Assembly (NCBI RefSeq): GCF_042688385.1 | Contig: NZ_JBHUPY010000007.1 | Location: 258,110-322,109 of the forward strand | Length of the DNA: 64,000 nucleotides | Source of the DNA: Herpetosiphon sp. NSE202 | GTDB taxonomy: Bacteria > Chloroflexota > Chloroflexia > Chloroflexales > Herpetosiphonaceae | Direction: 5' to 3' | Part shown: piece after piece, positions 25,707 through 32,586 of the stretch | Numbering within the stretch: position 1 is the first letter of the stretch | How the letters are laid out: each line of letters opens with the position of its first letter | The notes under the pieces: generated by a model | Databases searched by the model: none | What the model saw: only the letters and a program-made list of their open reading frames with translations | What the model was told of the DNA's origin: nothing | Position numbers and translations under genes: made by a program

Positions 25707-26597
25707 ATGTGTAGATTGGGGCTGGCGATGCGGCGAAAAAAACCATTGGATTGGGCAACTCTTGGGCCAATTGCGGTACTTTTGGGCTTATTGCTGTTAA
25801 TTGTCAACCAGCTTAATCAACCAAAAACCCGTTATGCTCCGCTGGGTGCATATTTCAGCGATGCTGCTGCCAGCGTGCCTCAAAGCCAAGTTACACCCCT
25901 GCCACCAACCACCTTGCAAGCGATTGAACAAAGCAATGCTGCTGGCAGCTCCAACCAAATCGATTTGGTGCTCGAAACCGAGCTGTACCAAGACCAAAGC
26001 AACGAATTGGCGGGCGAGTTGCAAACAGCGCTCGATTATGTTCAAGAGCGCACCAATATTCGCCTCAATGAACGAGTGACCGTCGTAATTAGCCAGGATG
26101 CCCAATGTGGTTTTCATGGCGTAACCTATTCCGATGTGCGGGTGATTTACATTTATAGTTGTGCTGGGGTTGCGCGTAGCCGCGTGGTTAATATCGCGGC
26201 TCACGAATTTGTGCATCAATTGGAGCAAGATCGCTATGGCGCTGCCCATTTGAGCGCCGACTTGGCGCTTTCTGAAGGCTTTGCAACCTGGGGCGCAGGC
26301 CGCTATTGGCTTGGCAGTGCCAGCGATTTTAGCAGTTTTGCCCGCGACTATAAGTCCAATGGTCAAGCCTTGCCGCTTGCCACGCACTACGCCAGCGTTG
26401 GCATCGACGGCATGAATGTGCTCTACTATCAATGGGCGAGCTTTGTCGATTATTTGATTAACAGATATGGCCGCGAAGCCTTCGATCAATTGTACGTTTC
26501 TGGCGGCGAGCGCCAACCTGGTGCGGCCAACTATGCTGCAATCTACAATCGATCGTTTGGTTTGTTAGAGGCCGAATGGCAGCAAACACTCGATTAG
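25707..26597 (+). CDS. Membrane-anchored hypothetical protein with an HExxH zinc-metallopeptidase-like motif
   Basis: N-terminal TM helix (..LGPIAVLLGLLLLIVNQL..) and ..VNIAAHEFVHQLEQ.. Possible alternative start at 25728 (MRRKKPL). Confidence 0.5.
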   Translation: MCRLGLAMRRKKPLDWATLGPIAVLLGLLLLIVNQLNQPKTRYAPLGAYFSDAAASVPQSQVTPLPPTTLQAIEQSNAAGSSNQIDLVLETELYQDQSNELAGELQTALDYVQERTNIRLNERVTVVISQDAQCGFHGVTYSDVRVIYIYSCAGVARSRVVNIAAHEFVHQLEQDRYGAAHLSADLALSEGFATWGAGRYWLGSASDFSSFARDYKSNGQALPLATHYASVGIDGMNVLYYQWASFVDYLINRYGREAFDQLYVSGGERQPGAANYAAIYNRSFGLLEAEWQQTLD

Positions 26598-27542: not shown

Positions 27543-27675
27543 TCACAAAAGAGCTTGGGGTTGCTGCCTCAAGCTCTTTTTCGCAACAATCAACCCCGAA
27601 ACCACGTACCTTTTGCAAGATTTTCTCCCAATTCTGGCCATTTTCTGCGATGTTCTTTTTGAGAAAGGGCTTATT

Positions 27676-29055
27676 ATGTTTGGCGTTTTGCGTGGGTGCT
27701 CGCCGCACCTCGATCAATCGACCCATGCTGCTTGGTGGAGCCATATTTGTGGCATGTGCCTCACATTGCGCGATCAGCACGGCCAAGTTGCCCGCATCAC
27801 CACCAATTACGATGCGGCCTTGCTTTCGGCCTTGTACGAAGCGCAACGCCCTGAACAAGGCGCACGCCGCACCAGTGTTTGTGCCTTGCGCAGCTTTCGG
27901 GCGCTCGATGTGGTAGCGGCTGATGATCATGGGTCGCGCTATGCAGCAGCGGTCAGTTTGCTGATGGCAGCAATTCGGCTGCGCGACAATGTGGCCGACC
28001 GCGATGGCTGGGCTGGTAAAGTGCCCTTCGTTGCCAATGGCGTGGCCAAGCGCTGGGATAAGCAGGCAGAACAAACCGCCCGCGAATTGGGCTTCGAGCC
28101 AGCCTTGTTGCGAGAACAAGCAATTGCCCAAGCAGCAGTCGAAGCCTTGCCCAAGGCCGATTTTTGCACCTACTCAGCGCCAACTGAAGCCGCTGTGGGC
28201 GCAGCCTTTCGGCATACCGCAATTTTGGCCAACCAGCCAAGCAACGCCGAGCCGCTAGAGCATATGGGTCGCATGTATGGCCGCATGATGTTGCTGCTCG
28301 ATAGCTATGGCGATTTTGCCGAAGATCAGGCGCGTGGCCATTTTAATGCCTTGAATGCAACACCCCAAGCTGAATTGCGCACCACGGCGCATAAAATCTT
28401 CAACGATGCCTTGGCAAGCTTGCGCCAACACTGGCAACGTTTGACCCTCTTGCAAGCGCATTTGGTCGAAGTGTTGTTGCTCAATATGTTGCCAGCAATT
28501 GGCTCAAAAGCTTTTGGAGCTTGCAAACGCCATAGTTTGGTCTGTGCAACCGCTTTGCCAGTGGCCGCCGCATTGTTGCCAGCCATGGCCAGCGATTATG
28601 ACGACGACCCTTCGCGTCGCGACCCCAACCGTGCCTACACTGGGCCAACACGGGCCCTCAAACCCCACGAAAACCCAGAGTACCAAGGCCAATATCCGCA
28701 ACAACCGCCCTACCAAGGCCAACAATATCCTTCGCAATATCCGCCGCCGTACAATCCCAACGATCCAGGGATGTTGCCACCAGGTACGTTGCCGCCAGCC
28801 AGCTCGCATCCCGCGCCGCAAGGCCATTATCAAGATAGCAAGCGCGATGTGGCCTTAGGTGCGGCCTTGTGTTGCTGCCAAAGCCGCCGCCATTCGCATC
28901 GCTCGCGCAGCCGCTGTTGTGATAGTGATTGCTGTGATTGTTGTCAATGTTCATGTATCTGTTGCGATGCAACTGATGCCTGCGAAGGCGGCTGTGGCTG
29001 TTGCGAATGTGGTAGTTGCTGCGAATGTGGCGATTGCTGTAGCTGCGATTGTTAA
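27676..29055 (+). CDS. Chimeric protein: conserved N-terminal Cys/His-motif domain (DUF5685-like, tentative), Pro/Gln/Tyr-rich linker and a metallothionein-like poly-Cys C-terminal tail
   Basis: N-terminus MFGVLRGCSPHLDQSTHAAWWSHICGMCLTLRDQHGQVARITTNYD.. The linker reads ..YQGQYPQQPPYQGQQYPSQYPPPYNPNDPGMLPPGTLPP.. The tail reads CCCQSRRHSHRSRSRCCDSDCCDCCQCSCICCDATDACEGGCGCCECGSCCECGDCCSCDC. The start is ATG 27676 after GAGAAAGGG; the ORF track starts at 27415 inside lgt. Confidence 0.7.
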   Translation: MFGVLRGCSPHLDQSTHAAWWSHICGMCLTLRDQHGQVARITTNYDAALLSALYEAQRPEQGARRTSVCALRSFRALDVVAADDHGSRYAAAVSLLMAAIRLRDNVADRDGWAGKVPFVANGVAKRWDKQAEQTARELGFEPALLREQAIAQAAVEALPKADFCTYSAPTEAAVGAAFRHTAILANQPSNAEPLEHMGRMYGRMMLLLDSYGDFAEDQARGHFNALNATPQAELRTTAHKIFNDALASLRQHWQRLTLLQAHLVEVLLLNMLPAIGSKAFGACKRHSLVCATALPVAAALLPAMASDYDDDPSRRDPNRAYTGPTRALKPHENPEYQGQYPQQPPYQGQQYPSQYPPPYNPNDPGMLPPGTLPPASSHPAPQGHYQDSKRDVALGAALCCCQSRRHSHRSRSRCCDSDCCDCCQCSCICCDATDACEGGCGCCECGSCCECGDCCSCDC

Positions 29056-29122
29056 ATTAAAAGCTGACCCCGCCATGCGTCTAGGCTGCATGGCGGGGTC
29101 GCTGTGTGTATCTGTAAGTTGT

Positions 29123-29979: not shown

Positions 29980-32310
29980 TTATTTGGCAGGGGCACTTTG
30001 GCGTTTAACCGCAACATCGGTTTTGCGATGTTGCAAGTGCTCAGCAATCACATACGAGCCAATGACGAAGGCAGCAGCTGCAACTTGTGAGGCAATGCCT
30101 TCCCAGGTTGCATAGAAGCCCAGCCACATATTGGCCCAATACGGAATTTCAAGGCTGCGAATTGGGTGCAGCGGCATCCAACCAACTAATTGCATAATAT
30201 GAACCGTGTTGCCAACCATAATCAGCAGCACCGCCCCAATCATCACGCCAGTGACGATCAGCATTTTCTTATGCGGCAATTTGGCTTGCAAACCAAAGAC
30301 TAGCACGCCAACCAAGGCCGTGCCACCAAGCCCCAGCGCAACCCCGCCAAGCACCACTTGGGTGCTAGCTTCGAGCACCAGCGCTTGCAAAAAGAGCACG
30401 GTTTCAACGCCTTCGCGATAGATGCTGGTAAAGCCCAAGGTGATCAAGCCCAGCCAAAGCCCTGCTTTGCCGCCAATAATTCGGCGTTTTTGGGCATGGA
30501 AATTGGCCATCCAGCCAGTCCAATAGACTTTGTGGAAGAACCAGTTGGTGATCAATAGCAACACGCCAATCGCAATCAACGAAACAATCGCCTCGATCTT
30601 TTCTTGATCACCACGCCGAATCAGTTCGTTGATCAAGCCTCGCGCTAGCACCCACGTTAGAGCTGTAGCGACCATCGCGAGGGCTGCACCAATCCAAATT
30701 GGCTTGCGATAGCTGCGTTGTTCGCCAATTTTGAGGCTGGCTAGCAACGAGGCCAAAATCAACACGGCCTCTAAGCCTTCGCGGAACACAATCACGGCAG
30801 CACTGGTAGCCACAGCTTCTGGGGTACTGGAGCCGCCAAGGGCATCTTGCGCCAAATCGAGTTGTTTATCCAAGGCTTGGCGGCTGGCGCGAATGTCGCT
30901 CAGCGGCGCTTTTTGGCGAATCAACTCGGCAAGGCCAGTAAATTCGTCTTTGCCATACCAAAAGAGATTTTCAATTGGGGCTTTGTATTCTGGCGCAAAC
31001 ACAATCAAGCGCGCTTCTGGGCCAGATTCGAGCACAGCGTAGGCTTCCAAACGCGCCGATTCAGCCAGATCATATTGATCGCCAGCGACAGCATTTTCCA
31101 TCTGATCAAGCATTGAATCGATCACATCGAAATCGCCTTCGAGGCTCGATTTTTGCCACTCGGCAGGCATAATTGAGGCTAAGGTTGTGGTAATGCTATC
31201 AACTTTGGCTTGCACTGCATCGGGGTCGGCGACGCTGGTACGTTGGGCCGCAGCGGTCAGCATCGTTTCAAGATCGCGCAACTCGCCAGCAACTTGTTGG
31301 GTTTTGGTCGCATCAATTTCGACCAACAAGCTTTCAAGGTCACTAAATGCGGCAGCAGCGCCATTACGGAAGGTAGTGGCTTCTTGAATTTCAAGGTCAA
31401 GCGTGACTTGGCCGTTGCGCACGCCACGTTCATATTCAACAGGCACAAGGCTCAAGAAGCGGCGCAATTGACCAGCGCGACGCACTTGCTCCGATGGACT
31501 AAGCGGAGCCGCCCGAAAGCCGCTGAGTGAGCCTTCAAAGGTTGTAATTGCCGTTTCTAGGTTGGTATTGCTTAGCGCTGCTTCGCGCAAGGCTTGGGCA
31601 TTGGTTAATGCACTATCAGCCTTATCAGGATATTGCCCACGATAGGCTGGCTCTAAAATATTAAAATAGCCTTGGATTGCTGCGCCAGCCTCTGCTTGCT
31701 GAATCCGATTGCCTTTTTGGGCGGCGCTACGCAGGGTGCGCAAACTCTCGTTAAGTTTGGCTTGATAGGTATCCAACAAATCGGCATCGAGGGCAATGCG
31801 GGCATCGGCGGCACTATAGGCTGCTTGTTTCCATTGCTCGATAGCGCGGGCTGCATCGCCATTAGGGCGTGAAAAGCGGGTCGCATTGCGAAACTCGCGC
31901 ACAGGCAGCCATTGCAAAGCTTGTTCTGGCTTGTCGGTATCGATTGCTTGGCCAACAATGCCATAGCTCGCTTTGAGCAAATCGATCCAGAGCAAGGCAC
32001 GCTGTTGAGCAAAGGCCGCAACATCGTTCGCAGCCAAGGCCTGATCTAAATCTGCCCAGCGTGTGGCGATTTCAGTAGCCTGTTGGGGAGCCAAGCTGGT
32101 CAAATCCTTGGCGAGAGCTTGATCATACAAGGCTTGGGCTTCGCTGACCAAACGTTTGGCGTTGGCAGCATCAGTTGTGAGCGATAATTGGGCTTTCACC
32201 AACAACGAACGCACCGATTCGCTGGCTTGGGCTGGTGATGGTTCGGCTGCCATGGCCGACCATGGCAATAAAGCAACGACCAACGCCAGCAAAAAACGAC
32301 GCAACCACAT
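29980..32310 (-). CDS. FTR1-family iron permease fused to a large (about 480 aa) N-terminal periplasmic domain
   Basis: Signal peptide MWLRRFLLALVVALLPWSAMA. The C-terminal 7-TM region carries two REGLE / REGVE motifs (..VIVFREGLEAVLILASL.., ..SIYREGVETVLFLQAL..). The ATG is at 32310 after AGGAG. Confidence 0.8.
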   Translation of the reverse strand: MWLRRFLLALVVALLPWSAMAAEPSPAQASESVRSLLVKAQLSLTTDAANAKRLVSEAQALYDQALAKDLTSLAPQQATEIATRWADLDQALAANDVAAFAQQRALLWIDLLKASYGIVGQAIDTDKPEQALQWLPVREFRNATRFSRPNGDAARAIEQWKQAAYSAADARIALDADLLDTYQAKLNESLRTLRSAAQKGNRIQQAEAGAAIQGYFNILEPAYRGQYPDKADSALTNAQALREAALSNTNLETAITTFEGSLSGFRAAPLSPSEQVRRAGQLRRFLSLVPVEYERGVRNGQVTLDLEIQEATTFRNGAAAAFSDLESLLVEIDATKTQQVAGELRDLETMLTAAAQRTSVADPDAVQAKVDSITTTLASIMPAEWQKSSLEGDFDVIDSMLDQMENAVAGDQYDLAESARLEAYAVLESGPEARLIVFAPEYKAPIENLFWYGKDEFTGLAELIRQKAPLSDIRASRQALDKQLDLAQDALGGSSTPEAVATSAAVIVFREGLEAVLILASLLASLKIGEQRSYRKPIWIGAALAMVATALTWVLARGLINELIRRGDQEKIEAIVSLIAIGVLLLITNWFFHKVYWTGWMANFHAQKRRIIGGKAGLWLGLITLGFTSIYREGVETVLFLQALVLEASTQVVLGGVALGLGGTALVGVLVFGLQAKLPHKKMLIVTGVMIGAVLLIMVGNTVHIMQLVGWMPLHPIRSLEIPYWANMWLGFYATWEGIASQVAAAAFVIGSYVIAEHLQHRKTDVAVKRQSAPAK

Positions 32311-32374
32311 ACAAGCTCCTAAAATTGTGGTTTGCTGCTGCTCACAATGGGCAACAGCAAAATAAACCGACAAA

Positions 32375-32412
32375 GGACGTGAACCGTATGCCAACAGTTC
32401 ACGTCCTTTGCT
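32375..32412. promoter_or_regulatory. Perfect 12-bp-stem palindrome aaggacgtgaac(N12)gttcacgtcctt in the imelysin-FTR1 intergenic region
   Basis: Read directly. It contains GTGAAC..GTTCAC half-sites. A second imperfect palindrome, aatcaGTTCgtGAACcgatt, lies at 32547-32566. Confidence 0.4.
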
Positions 32413-32586
32413 GCTTAAGTTTTGTGATGGAGGGACGCACACCCAAACTCCATCGACCTTGCTCCGTCGCAACTTCTTTCTCATTGATCGCATAGGTATA
32501 ACTGTGATACAAGCAGTATACCTATTTTGGTTCGATTTGCGAATCAGTTCGTGAACCGATTTTTAGCCTATTTCGAGCTTTTTTGC

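What the first reader, a model, noticed from the sequence alone, without database searches (positions are those of the whole stretch)
27676..29055. Chimeric protein with a metallothionein-like poly-Cys tail fused to a conserved N-terminal CxxH / HxCGxC domain
The C-terminal 60 residues contain about 29 Cys in CC, CxC and CxxC arrays (..CCDSDCCDCCQCSCICCDATDACEGGCGCCECGSCCECGDCCSCDC). They are encoded by internally duplicated tgttgcgaatgtgg units. This tail is separated from a globular N-terminal domain (MFGVLRGCSPHLD..WWSHICGMCLTLRD.., reminiscent of DUF5685-type proteins) by a Pro/Gln/Tyr-rich linker (YQGQYPQQPPYQGQQYPSQYPPPY). I do not recognise such a fusion as described. It could be a metal- or redox-buffering or metal-sensing protein. 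It sits next to lgt and a DoxX gene. If the six-frame ORF is real, its upstream part overlaps the 3' end of lgt.
Basis: seen in the sequence. Interest (0 to 1): 0.75.

Follow-up and report, generated by a model that had tools for sequence, protein, structure and literature searches.

The report
Prenyltransferase-like protein with poly-cysteine tail
This is a real, strongly conserved gene found in hundreds of soil bacteria, in which an enzyme-like domain folded like the enzymes that build isoprenoid lipid chains is tethered to a floppy tail that is almost half cysteine; nobody appears to have worked out what it does.

Summary
The ORF at 27676-29055 (+) is real: 459 aa, Herpetosiphon sp. NSE202. 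The quoted motifs, the Pro/Gln/Tyr linker and the duplicated DNA units are all there. The Cys count is 24 in the last 60 residues (25 in the last 61, 32 overall), not about 29.

It is not a one-off chimera. It is the standard architecture of a large DUF5685 (PF18937) clade, found in at least 545 species of Actinomycetota and Chloroflexota, plus Desulfococcaceae. 92% of the proteins of 300 aa or more that I retrieved end in a Cys/Asp/Gly tail.

Compared with the H. aurantiacus orthologue, domain, linker and tail all show pN/pS of about 0.08. All 25 tail Cys are kept, and 9 of them have switched TGT/TGC. That excludes a frameshift artefact.

No gene partner is conserved, and I found no published characterisation.

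Best reading (about 0.4): an isoprenoid-diphosphate-binding enzyme domain with a tethered metal-thiolate tail like metallothionein or phytochelatin. Main rival (about 0.2): the domain S-prenylates its own tail.

The parts
27547..27580 (+). Terminator-like hairpin with a T-run after the lgt stop codon (27542). It separates lgt from the DUF5685 gene.
   Evidence: arms of 14 nt, 93% complementary, 6-nt loop, followed by TTTTT.
27676..29055 (+). Complete CDS, 459 aa plus stop: DUF5685-family protein with a poly-Cys tail.
   Evidence: 100% identical to an NCBI 'DUF5685 family protein' of Herpetosiphon sp. NSE202. Purifying selection against H. aurantiacus: pN/pS 0.08-0.09 in all three parts.
27676..28521 (+). 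Folded N-terminal domain (residues 1-282). It is all-alpha plus one beta-hairpin and has the trans-prenyltransferase (class I isoprenoid synthase) fold.
27742..27759 (+). H23-I-C25-G26-M-C28: an invariant HxCGxC motif, a putative metal (Zn or Fe-S) ligand set together with C69.
   Evidence: C25, G26 and C28 are invariant and H23 is at 90% or more. H is present in 274 of 276 homologues. The ligand role is inferred, not tested.
27880..27891 (+). C69-A-L-R72: an invariant Cys and Arg on the beta-hairpin that replaces helix C of canonical synthases.
   Evidence: C69 and R72 are invariant. CxxR is present in 265 of 276 homologues. The HMM alignment places this stretch just after the 'GKRxRP' motif of 4lob.
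27985..27999 (+). D104-N-V-A-D108: the counterpart of the first Asp-rich motif (FARM, DDxxD) of trans-prenyltransferases.
   Evidence: D104 and D108 are invariant. They align to HDDVVD of polyprenyl synthetase 4lob. DxxxD is present in 275 of 276 homologues.
28300..28353 (+). D209-S-Y-G-D213-F-A-E-D217 ... G221-H-F-N224-A-L226: the counterpart of the second Asp-rich motif (SARM) and the segment that follows it.
   Evidence: D209, D213, D217 and N224 are invariant. They align to DDILDYTSD of 4lob and to DDILD...GKSTYPAL of E. coli IspA. The IspA sequence was verified as identical to 1RQJ.
28534..28590 (+). Hydrophobic stretch SLVCATALPVAAALLPAMA (residues 287-305). It occurs only in the Herpetosiphon-like group.
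   Evidence: Kyte-Doolittle mean over 19 residues is 1.89. It is absent from most other lineages. AF2 pLDDT is below 50.
28531..28869 (+). Disordered linker (residues 286-398), rich in Pro, Gln, Tyr and Ala. It includes the YQGQYPQQPPYQGQQYPSQYPPPY block at 28681-28752.
   Evidence: Composition: P 22, A 14, Q 10, Y 9 of 113 residues. pLDDT is below 50 over most of it and reaches only 58-64 around residues 351-370. Length and sequence vary greatly across the family. It is nevertheless under purifying selection within Herpetosiphon.
28870..28914 (+). CCC triplet followed by the basic patch QSRRHSHRSRSR (residues 399-413).
   Evidence: A basic run ahead of the acidic Cys tail is common in the family.
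28915..29052 (+). Acidic poly-Cys tail (residues 414-459): 22 Cys, 10 Asp+Glu and no Lys or Arg in 46 residues, ending ...CCSCDC-COOH.
   Evidence: Family-wide tail composition is C 45%, D 17%, G 15%. 64% of tails end on Cys, and 'CDC' is the commonest ending. All 25 tail Cys are conserved against H. aurantiacus, 9 of them with TGT/TGC changes. Internal 18-nt repeats are present.
29066..29100 (.). Perfect 13-bp inverted repeat between the convergent DUF5685 and DoxX genes, probably a bidirectional terminator.
   Evidence: GACCCCGCCATGC / GCATGGCGGGGTC, 9 nt between the arms.

Best explanation
The gene encodes a two-module protein that is probably cytoplasmic (no N-terminal signal-like hydrophobic stretch is visible in the sequence).

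**Module 1 (residues 1-282)** is a divergent member of the trans-prenyltransferase (class I isoprenoid synthase) superfamily.
- It keeps both Asp-rich motifs (D104xxxD108 and D209xxxD213xxxD217). In this fold those motifs hold the Mg2+ ions that bind and ionise an allylic isoprenoid diphosphate.
- It has lost the residues that bind isopentenyl diphosphate (IPP).
- It has gained an invariant H23-x-C25-G-x-C28 ... C69 tetrad. I infer that this binds Zn or an Fe-S cluster near the place where the second substrate sits in canonical enzymes.

**Module 2** is a roughly 170-residue disordered arm. It ends in a tail that is 48% Cys and 22% Asp/Glu.

**Most likely mechanism.** The tail is a high-capacity thiolate/carboxylate chelator for soft metal ions (Zn2+, Cu+, Cd2+, possibly Fe). 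In this it resembles metallothioneins, gene-encoded (Glu-Cys)n phytochelatin analogues and the metal-reservoir tail of SlyD. It would buffer or sense metal, and perhaps feed the Cys3His site, while the enzyme domain acts on an isoprenoid diphosphate with an acceptor other than IPP.

**Shown here:**
- the gene is real and under selection
- family membership
- the fold
- conservation and alignment of the motifs
- predicted disorder of the arm
- the tail is universal in the clade
- there is no conserved gene partner.

**Inferred:**
- Mg2+/diphosphate binding
- metal binding by the tetrad
- metal binding by the tail
- any coupling between the two modules.
For: **Gene and family**
- PF18937, E = 1e-26.
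- pN/pS of about 0.08 in the domain, linker and tail, with all 25 tail Cys kept.

**Fold**
- AF2 pLDDT above 90 for residues 11-280.
- Foldseek with a second, independent model (homologue P0118) returns only the same families.

**Motifs**
- A profile HMM of the family hits polyprenyl synthetase 4lob (E = 0.0064). It aligns D104/D108 to the DDVVD motif and D209/D213/D217 to DDILDYTSD.
- hhalign against E. coli IspA aligns D209/D213 to the DDILD motif.
- These Asp residues, C25, C28, C69 and R72 are invariant. H23 is present in 274 of 276 homologues.

**Tail**
- 264 of 287 homologues of 300 aa or more have at least 8 Cys in the last 50 residues.
- Composition is C 45%, D 17%, G 15%, with almost no aromatic, hydrophobic or basic residues. 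CxC and CC motifs dominate.
- 79 of 80 genome loci carry the tail.
- The tail is disordered in two AF2 models. That fits a peptide that would fold only around metal.

**Precedents (from established knowledge, not tested here)**
- Fungal Cu-metallothioneins and MymT use CxC/CC arrays.
- The E. coli ZntA N-terminus carries CCCDGAC.
- SlyD carries a disordered Cys/His/Asp metal-reservoir tail on a folded domain.
Against: - No metal-responsive regulator or transporter is consistently linked to the gene. Neighbourhoods are conserved only within lineages.
- A pure metal buffer would not need to be fused, in essentially every member, to a domain that keeps catalytic Asp motifs. The tail was not found on other domains, although the only search for that was uninformative.
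- No metallothionein Pfam family matches.
- The strong preference for ending exactly on Cys or CxC is not explained by metal buffering.
- No experimental data of any kind were found.
Confidence: 0.4

Rival explanations
1. Self-lipidation. The N-terminal domain is a protein-cysteine prenyltransferase that works on its own tail. The Asp motifs with Mg2+ ionise an allylic diphosphate (for example FPP or GGPP). The Cys3His-bound Zn activates a tail thiolate, as in eukaryotic protein farnesyltransferase. One or more tail Cys become S-prenylated, which gives a lipidated 'cysteine-string' membrane anchor.
For: - The fold and both Asp motifs are those of enzymes that ionise prenyl diphosphates. The IPP-binding residues are not conserved: the motif I Arg residues vary, the Lys of the 'KT' motif aligns to Pro169, and there is no RRG after the first Asp motif. 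So the acceptor is something other than IPP.
- Domain and tail co-occur in 92% or more of members across three phyla, despite linkers that range from about 10 to more than 300 residues.
- 64% of tails end exactly on Cys and 42% end CxCxC. This resembles the CC/CXC termini of Rab GTPases.
- Some Streptomyces orthologues score above threshold for Pfam CYSTM. In yeast that module is a multiply S-acylated membrane anchor, not a transmembrane helix (PMC10840359).
- A basic patch precedes the tail, as in polybasic-plus-lipid anchors.
Against: - Protein S-prenylation by a bacterial enzyme acting on a bacterial protein has no precedent that I know of.
- 20-30 Cys interspersed with Asp or Glu is far more than an anchor needs, and it is electrostatically unfavourable at an anionic membrane.
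- AF2 does not dock the tail into the domain, either in the window protein or in a short-linker homologue (tail pLDDT below 50).
- The CYSTM match is absent from the window protein.
- The location of the Cys3His tetrad next to the acceptor site is an inference from a weak sequence alignment.
Confidence: 0.2
2. Redox or electrophile sink, or Fe-S scaffold. The tail thiols act as a sacrificial or reversible buffer for oxidants or reactive electrophiles. Alternatively they assemble Fe-S clusters that supply electrons to, or report redox state to, the enzyme domain.
For: - The thiol density is extreme.
- Three invariant Cys in the domain recall the three-Cys [4Fe-4S] sites of the isoprenoid enzymes IspG and IspH (my knowledge).
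- The host lineages are largely aerobic soil bacteria, judging from the taxa listed; their lifestyle is my knowledge, not a tool result.
Against: - Cys positions in the tail are not conserved across lineages; only the composition is. Fe-S binding motifs are normally fixed in position.
- There is no link to thioredoxin, mycothiol or suf/isc genes in any neighbourhood examined.
- The acidic Asp/Glu spacing is more typical of cation chelation.
Confidence: 0.1
3. Membrane-spanning protein with an exported tail. The hydrophobic stretch (residues 287-305 here; the 'GCLVWAGLACTCQMCC' segment in Streptomyces) is a transmembrane helix. The linker and tail would then lie outside the cell, binding metals or forming disulfides.
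For: - Kyte-Doolittle means of 1.8-1.9 over 19 residues in the Herpetosiphon and Streptomyces groups.
- In the window protein the flanking charges fit N-in/C-out: KRH before the stretch and DYDDD after it.
Against: - Many full-length members have no hydrophobic stretch at all after the domain, for example P0013, P0028, P0118, P0192 and P0194 (maxima of about 0.8 or less). A topology that differs between orthologues is unlikely.
- The two hydrophobic stretches lie at non-equivalent positions.
- The Herpetosiphon stretch contains two Pro and is modelled with low confidence.
- The yeast CYSTM 'TM' turned out not to be transmembrane (PMC10840359).
Confidence: 0.05
4. Transcriptional or 'expression' regulator, as some UniProt names say ('Expression regulator', 'Regulator', 'Regulatory protein').
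For: Only the inherited database names.
Against: - No DNA-binding domain was detected.
- The fold is an enzyme fold with conserved catalytic motifs.
- I found no paper supporting the name.
Confidence: 0.03
5. Assembly frameshift, or a non-coding low-complexity artefact that creates the Cys-rich frame.
For: None. About 8% of database homologues do lack the tail.
Against: - The same frame is present in 79 of 80 genome loci from independent assemblies.
- Tail pN/pS is 0.084, with 25 of 25 Cys conserved and 9 synonymous TGT/TGC switches against H. aurantiacus.
- By my reading of the listed sequences, the tail-less database entries are fragments, or end in Ala/Thr/Val- or Arg/Leu-rich sequence. That is what the other two frames of (TGC-GAC)n encode, so those entries are the frameshifted ones.
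Confidence: 0.01

Closest known systems
trans-Isoprenyl diphosphate synthases (polyprenyl_synt superfamily: M. tuberculosis Rv0562 9imq, E. coli IspA 1RQJ, octaprenyl/solanesyl-PP synthases)
   Different: - Only 10-17% identity, and no PF00348 match even at E = 10.
- The middle Asp of each motif is missing.
- The IPP-binding motif I Arg residues, the Lys of 'KT' and the 'RRG' after the first Asp motif are not conserved.
- Helix C is replaced by a beta-hairpin that carries an invariant Cys.
- It adds an HxCGxC motif and a roughly 170-residue disordered arm with a poly-Cys tail.
Non-elongating prenyltransferases of the same fold (MoeN5, Ord1, and ComQ, which prenylates the ComX peptide)
   Different: None of them carries a Cys3His tetrad or has its presumed acceptor fused in cis. 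Activity of the window protein is unproven.
Metallothioneins and gene-encoded phytochelatin analogues (fungal Cu-MTs, mycobacterial MymT, cyanobacterial SmtA, synthetic (Glu-Cys)n peptides)
   Same: Very high Cys content in CxC, CC and CxxC arrays. Gly, Ser, Asp and Asn serve as spacers, aromatic residues are absent, and the metal-free peptide is predicted to be disordered.
   Different: - It is the tail of a 459-aa enzyme-like protein, not a small free-standing protein.
- At 45-48% it is even more Cys-rich, strongly acidic and without Lys.
- No MT Pfam family matches.
- It does not lie in metal-resistance operons.
- Metal binding was not tested.
Eukaryotic CYSTM / CYSPD proteins (PF12734; yeast Cpp1-3, plant CDT1/PCC1)
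   Same: A Pro/Gln/Gly/Tyr-rich region followed by a C-terminal Cys-rich segment. Some Streptomyces orthologues score above the Pfam threshold (28.4 against 25.2 bits). The family is implicated in metal tolerance and is S-acylated for membrane binding (PMC10840359).
   Different: - The window protein itself does not match PF12734.
- In the bacterial proteins the CYSTM-like stretch is followed by a further roughly 45-residue acidic Cys tail and preceded by a 280-residue enzyme domain.
- CYSTM is described as eukaryotic.
- Lipidation was not tested here.
Metal-reservoir tails on folded bacterial proteins (the E. coli SlyD C-terminal tail; the ZntA N-terminal CCCDGAC motif)
   Same: A disordered Cys/Asp(/His)-rich extension tethered to a folded catalytic or chaperone domain. 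This comparison rests on my knowledge.
   Different: Those tails are shorter, rich in His, and linked to known Ni or Zn pathways. Here there is no His in the acidic tail and no known pathway.

Membership tests
DUF5685 (Pfam PF18937) | Match to the family HMM above the gathering score | tested here: met
   94.4 bits against a cut-off of 26.7; residues 1-261 match profile positions 1-254 of 272. All 52 aligned homologues match.
trans-Isoprenyl diphosphate synthase (polyprenyl_synt, PF00348) | Class I isoprenoid-synthase alpha-helical fold | tested here: met
trans-Isoprenyl diphosphate synthase (polyprenyl_synt, PF00348) | Two Asp-rich motifs, DDx(2-4)D (FARM) and DDxxD (SARM) | tested here: inconclusive
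   D104xxxD108 and D209xxxD213 align to the first and last Asp of each motif and are invariant. The second Asp of each motif is absent (N105, S210).
trans-Isoprenyl diphosphate synthase (polyprenyl_synt, PF00348) | IPP-binding residues (motif I GKxxR, Lys of 'KT', RRG after FARM) | tested here: not met
   The Arg residues before C69 vary among homologues. The Lys of 'KT' aligns to Pro169. No RRG follows D108.
trans-Isoprenyl diphosphate synthase (polyprenyl_synt, PF00348) | Match to the family HMM | tested here: not met
   No PF00348 hit for any of the 52 members, even at E = 10.
trans-Isoprenyl diphosphate synthase (polyprenyl_synt, PF00348) | Chain-elongation activity with IPP | not testable with these tools
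   Needs an enzyme assay.
Metallothionein | High Cys content in CxC/CC/CxxC arrays, with no aromatic residues | tested here: met
   22 Cys in the last 46 residues, with 9 CC, 9 CxC and 2 CxxC across the 61-residue tail and no aromatic residues. The family-wide composition agrees.
Metallothionein | Small free-standing protein (under about 10 kDa) | tested here: not met
   It is the C-terminal tail of a 459-aa protein. The architecture is the same in 92% or more of homologues.
Metallothionein | Match to a known MT family model | tested here: not met
   No MT family appears among Pfam hits at E = 1 or E = 10. HMMER's composition filters may hide weak matches.
Metallothionein | Forms metal-thiolate clusters | not testable with these tools
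   Needs ICP-MS, native MS or spectroscopy.
CYSTM / CYSPD (PF12734) | Match to the family HMM | tested here: not met
   The window protein has no hit at E = 1. Three Streptomyces-clade orthologues do match (26.6-28.4 bits against 25.2).
CYSTM / CYSPD (PF12734) | S-acylation of the Cys-rich segment that mediates membrane binding | not testable with these tools
   Defined experimentally in yeast (PMC10840359).
Prenylated proteins (CaaX / Rab CC-CXC termini) | C-terminal CaaX, CC or CXC | tested here: met
   The protein ends ...CSCDC-COOH. 64% of family tails end on Cys and 42% end CxCxC. This is a resemblance only.
Prenylated proteins (CaaX / Rab CC-CXC termini) | Thioether-linked isoprenoid on Cys | not testable with these tools
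   Needs mass spectrometry of the native protein.

The most novel reading that the evidence does not exclude
The protein is a self-contained protein-lipidation device. A prenyltransferase-fold domain, using a Zn-activated thiolate, S-prenylates Cys residues of its own C-terminal tail. As far as I know, this would be the first endogenous bacterial protein cysteine-prenylation system. It would also be a convergent counterpart of eukaryotic CaaX/Rab prenylation and of CYSTM cysteine-string anchors.
Probability: 0.17. Interest if true: 0.9.

Novelty: new variant of a known kind. Interest (0 to 1): 0.6.

Why it matters
- **Scale of the gap.** The family is present, apparently as a stand-alone gene, in at least 545 species. 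These include essentially all the major antibiotic-producing actinomycete genera listed (Streptomyces, Amycolatopsis, Nocardia, Nonomuraea, Actinomadura and others) as well as filamentous Chloroflexota. It is still labelled only as a DUF, or misleadingly as a 'regulator'.
- **A concrete hypothesis.** Recognising the domain as a prenyltransferase-fold enzyme that keeps its diphosphate/Mg2+ motifs but has lost its IPP site turns an anonymous DUF into something testable. It acts on an isoprenoid diphosphate with a new acceptor.
- **The tail.** It is among the most Cys-dense natural sequences known to me. Either outcome would be new biology in well-studied model organisms. One is a built-in metallothionein linking metal status to isoprenoid chemistry. 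The other is a self-prenylated cysteine string.
- **Practical use.** The tail could also be of interest for metal capture.

Tried and rejected
**Literature.** None of these found a characterisation:
- DUF5685 / PF18937 gave a single in-silico C. difficile survey.
- orf1590 / SCO1748: my recollection that S. griseus ORF1590 might be this gene did not hold. ORF1590 is tagged SGR3902, whereas this family's S. griseus gene sits beside a SepF paralogue.
- Metallothionein plus Streptomyces.
- Neighbouring locus tags.
- CYSTM plus Streptomyces.
- 'Expression regulator'.
- The WhiA regulon paper.

**Family and homology searches**
- NCBIfam gave no match.
- Pfam at E = 10 on 52 members gave no polyprenyl_synt or MT hits.
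- hhalign of the family profile against the single IspA sequence aligned only the SARM region, at low probability (2%). I use it only as corroboration.
- A search for the tail on other proteins returned 'no candidate shares three 5-residue words'. It is uninformative.
- AFDB Foldseek was not available.

**Gene neighbourhood**
- Five individual loci and a clustering of ORFs from 85 loci showed only lineage-level synteny: SepF, acyl-CoA dehydrogenase and an MFS transporter in Streptomyces, and coaE in the Lentzea/Saccharothrix group.
- The lgt and DoxX linkage is therefore rejected as functional evidence.

**Other tests**
- AF2 on a short-linker homologue, run to look for the tail docking into the active site, found none.
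- The promoter/terminator consensus scan found nothing useful. The hairpins were found with the repeat tool instead.
- An alignment of the upstream regions of Streptomyces orthologues shows conserved blocks, but I could not assign them to a known regulator.
- Model coordinates are not exposed, so I could not measure the distance between the Cys3His tetrad and the Asp motifs.
- I could not retrieve the Firmicutes DUF5685 members, so I cannot say whether tail-less forms exist there.
Full report
**1. The observation**

The ORF at 27676-29055 (+) exists and translates to 459 residues. The Pro/Gln/Tyr block is residues 336-359. The tail begins with CCC at residue 399 (nt 28870).

The Cys count was overstated:
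- 24 Cys in the last 60 residues
- 25 in the last 61
- 22 in the last 46 (48%)
- 32 in the whole protein.

The duplicated DNA unit is real. TGTTGCGAATGTGG lies at 28999 and TGCTGCGAATGTGG at 29017, within a four-copy family of 18-nt repeats. The neighbours are lgt (PF01790) upstream and DoxX (PF07681) convergent downstream. Beyond DoxX lies an 837-aa FTR1-family protein.

**2. Is it a real gene, and where does it start?**

The mechanical ORF starts at TTG 27415 and overlaps lgt, but the true start is ATG 27676.
- Homologues begin MFG (196 of 276). M1, F2 and G3 are nearly invariant.
- AAGGG lies 9 nt upstream of the ATG.
- A 14-bp hairpin followed by a T-run (27547-27580) separates it from the lgt stop.
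- A perfect 13-bp inverted repeat (29066-29100) follows the stop codon.

The window protein is 100% identical to an NCBI 'DUF5685 family protein' of Herpetosiphon sp. NSE202.

I compared it codon by codon with the H. aurantiacus orthologue (locus L001):

| Part | pN/pS |
|---|---|
| Domain | 0.088 |
| Linker | 0.081 |
| Tail | 0.084 |

All 25 tail Cys are conserved, although 9 of them have switched between TGT and TGC. The only length differences are in-frame indels, the largest a six-codon repeat unit. It also shows that the linker and tail are selected as protein.

**3. It is a family trait, not a chimera**

- Of the 120 closest database clusters, nearly all end in 15-29 Cys within the last 70 residues.
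- A filter-free HMMER search with the N-terminal domain alone, against 1.84 billion representatives, found 1872 proteins at E below 1e-3, of which 142 are below 1e-30.
- Among all retrieved proteins of 300 aa or more, 264 of 287 have at least 8 Cys in the last 50 residues.
- By my reading of the listed sequences, the exceptions are fragments, or carry Ala/Thr/Val- or Arg/Leu-rich ends. Those are what the other two frames of (TGC-GAC)n encode, so they look like frameshifted gene calls.
The best 80 are Streptomyces, Kitasatospora, Lentzea, Saccharothrix, Amycolatopsis, Nocardia, Streptosporangium, Microbispora, Nonomuraea, Actinomadura, Thermobifida, Nocardiopsis and Chloroflexota MAGs. 79 of the 80 carry the tail, and the remaining one is cut by a contig end.
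- More distant members occur in Desulfococcaceae.

**4. The N-terminal domain**

*Family.* Pfam assigns residues 1-261 to DUF5685. NCBIfam has nothing.

*Fold.*
- AF2 with a 52-sequence alignment gives pLDDT above 90 for residues 11-280. The domain is all-alpha with a single beta-hairpin at 64-80.
- Further down the list come UbiA (about 11), squalene synthase (about 11) and terpene cyclases (about 9).
- An independent AF2 model of a short-linker homologue (P0118, pTM 0.85), searched with Foldseek, gives only the same families.

*Sequence.*
- A profile of the family reaches polyprenyl synthetase 4lob at E = 0.0064. That alignment puts D104/D108 on the first Asp-rich motif (HDDVVD) and D209/D213/D217 on the second (DDILDYTSD).
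- hhalign against E. coli IspA reproduces the second alignment and extends it: GHFNAL pairs with GKSTYPAL.
- D104, D108, D209, D213, D217 and N224 are invariant across the family. So are C25, G26, C28, C69 and R72. H23 is present in 274 of 276 members.

*What is missing.* The residues canonical synthases use to bind IPP are not conserved.
- The Arg residues preceding C69 vary among homologues.
- The Lys of the 'KT' motif aligns to Pro169.
- No RRG follows the first Asp motif.
- No member matches PF00348, even at E = 10.

*Conclusion.* This is a distinct family within the isoprenoid-synthase superfamily. It very probably still binds an allylic diphosphate through Mg2+ (inference). It does not condense that substrate with IPP (inference). 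It has acquired an HxCGxC...C tetrad that looks like a Zn or Fe-S site (inference). The weak sequence alignment places C69 right after the position of the IPP-binding motif I. That suggests the tetrad sits near the acceptor subsite, but I could not measure this.

**5. Linker and tail**

- Residues 283-459 are predicted disordered. pLDDT is below 50 over most of the arm and reaches only 58-64 around residues 351-370. The same holds for the tail of the short-linker homologue.
- Across the family the linker runs from about 10 to more than 300 residues and is not alignable.
- The dense tail has a median length of 35 residues and a median of 16 Cys.
- Its composition is C 45%, D 17%, G 15%, S 6% and E 4%, with almost no aromatic, hydrophobic or basic residues.
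- D is by far the commonest x in CxC.
- 64% of tails end exactly on Cys, 42% end CxCxC, and 'CDC' is the commonest ending.
- In the window protein a basic patch (QSRRHSHRSRSR) precedes 46 residues that hold 22 Cys, 10 Asp/Glu and no Lys or Arg.
- Some Streptomyces orthologues carry a hydrophobic Cys-rich stretch before the acidic tail, and it scores above threshold for Pfam CYSTM. The window protein does not match CYSTM.
- Hydrophobic stretches after the domain are lineage-specific and absent from many members. A conserved transmembrane topology is therefore unlikely.

**6. Genomic context**

The lgt and DoxX neighbours are shared only with other Herpetosiphon.
- In S. griseus the gene is divergent from a SepF paralogue, with an acyl-CoA dehydrogenase beyond it.
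- Three other lineages have unrelated neighbours.
- Clustering ORFs from 85 loci found only lineage-level synteny.

The gene looks monocistronic and has no conserved partner. SCO1750 is listed among lipid-degradation proteins in PMC8062868, consistent with the acyl-CoA dehydrogenase in the S. griseus locus. SepF1 is SCO1749, from my memory. On that basis I infer that the S. coelicolor orthologue is SCO1748. I did not verify this.

**7. How it most likely works**

Two facts need explaining together. One is a catalytic-looking prenyl-diphosphate-binding domain. The other is an always-attached, composition-selected poly-thiolate tail.

*Preferred reading (about 0.4).* The tail is a metal-thiolate/carboxylate module. 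Its composition matches metallothioneins and (Glu-Cys)n phytochelatin analogues. Disordered Cys/Asp-rich metal reservoirs tethered to folded bacterial proteins have precedent (SlyD, the ZntA N-terminus; my knowledge). Any peptide carrying 25 thiols would bind Zn or Cu in the cell. Under this reading the tail buffers or senses metal for an enzyme domain that has its own Cys3His site.

*Main rival (about 0.2).* The tail is itself the acceptor. The Asp motifs ionise a prenyl diphosphate, and the Zn-bound thiolate of a tail Cys attacks it, giving a self-prenylated cysteine-string anchor.
- For it: the loss of the IPP site, the obligatory cis-linkage, the Cys or CxC termini, the preceding basic patch, the CYSTM resemblance (palmitoylated in yeast, PMC10840359), and members of the same fold that prenylate other acceptors.
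- Against it: the number and acidity of the Cys residues, the lack of any bacterial precedent, and the absence of predicted docking.

*Lesser rivals.* A redox or Fe-S role, an exported tail, a transcription regulator (supported only by inherited names), and an artefact (refuted).

**8. Comparison with what is known, and novelty**

The protein is a member of DUF5685. It is a structural relative of trans-prenyltransferases but not a member of that family: the fold test is met, the Asp motifs are partly met, and the IPP site and the HMM match are not met.

The tail works like a metallothionein in composition only. It is not a free-standing MT and matches no MT model.

I found no paper that characterises this family. 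The entity is therefore catalogued but unexplained. The assignment of the fold and motifs, and the recognition that the tail is universal in the clade, are to my knowledge new. I rate it a new variant of a known kind (the isoprenoid-synthase superfamily). There is a minority chance (about 0.17) that it represents a categorically new bacterial protein-lipidation mechanism.

**9. Verdict**

Interest is 0.6. A specialist in Streptomyces or isoprenoid enzymology would find the architecture surprising, and it is directly testable. All functional statements remain inference.

Noticed in passing
window 29980-32493 (-): An 837-aa protein in which only residues 564-760 match the FTR1 iron-permease family. 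The N-terminal ~560 residues have no Pfam match. In H. aurantiacus the equivalent gene is followed by a Peptidase_M75 (EfeO/imelysin-like) gene, which suggests an EfeUO-type iron uptake unit with an unusual fused N-terminal domain.
   Followed up: partly
window 25707-26597 (+): A 296-aa ORF directly upstream of lgt. It has no Pfam match but contains an HEFVH (HExxH) zinc-metalloprotease-like motif and an N-terminal hydrophobic segment. It is conserved at the same position in H. aurantiacus.
   Followed up: no
L004, L044-L048, L059-L089 (Streptomyces loci), about 60-330 nt upstream of the DUF5685 start: The sepF-paralogue / DUF5685 intergenic region holds blocks conserved across many Streptomyces species. 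One is a repeated ACGGGTGA...CGTACGGGTGAAC element close to the DUF5685 start. Another is TGTGACGNTACTGGTGCACAA nearer the sepF paralogue. Kitasatospora has TCATATGATGT instead. I could not assign them to any known regulator.
   Followed up: partly
L008 5112-5420 (-) and 4213-5022 (-): In one metagenomic Chloroflexota-like contig the DUF5685 gene is divergent from an ArsR/SmtB-type (HTH_5) regulator and a SAM-methyltransferase. This is the only neighbourhood with a hint of metal or metalloid sensing, and it is a single case.
   Followed up: no
Taxa: The named hosts are predominantly filamentous or mycelial bacteria: sporoactinomycetes, Herpetosiphon, Chloroflexales, Ardenticatenaceae and Ca. 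Hadersleviella. The more distant members are in Desulfococcaceae, a family that includes filamentous Desulfonema. Unicellular actinobacteria were not seen among the best 80 loci. This could be a sampling effect and was not tested statistically.
   Followed up: no
P0051, P0178, P0200, P0207, P0220, P0242 and similar: Several database 'homologues without a tail' end in Ala/Thr/Val-rich or Arg/Leu-rich low-complexity sequence. That is what the +1 and +2 frames of (TGC-GAC)n repeats encode. They are probably frameshifted assemblies or gene calls of the high-GC Cys-tail region, which is worth knowing when annotating this family.
   Followed up: partly
P0003; P0290 and P0300: Public names for this one family are inconsistent: 'DUF3824 domain-containing protein', 'Cysteine-rich transmembrane CYSTM domain-containing protein', 'Expression regulator', 'Regulator' and 'Regulatory protein'. 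None reflects the prenyltransferase-like fold.
   Followed up: partly
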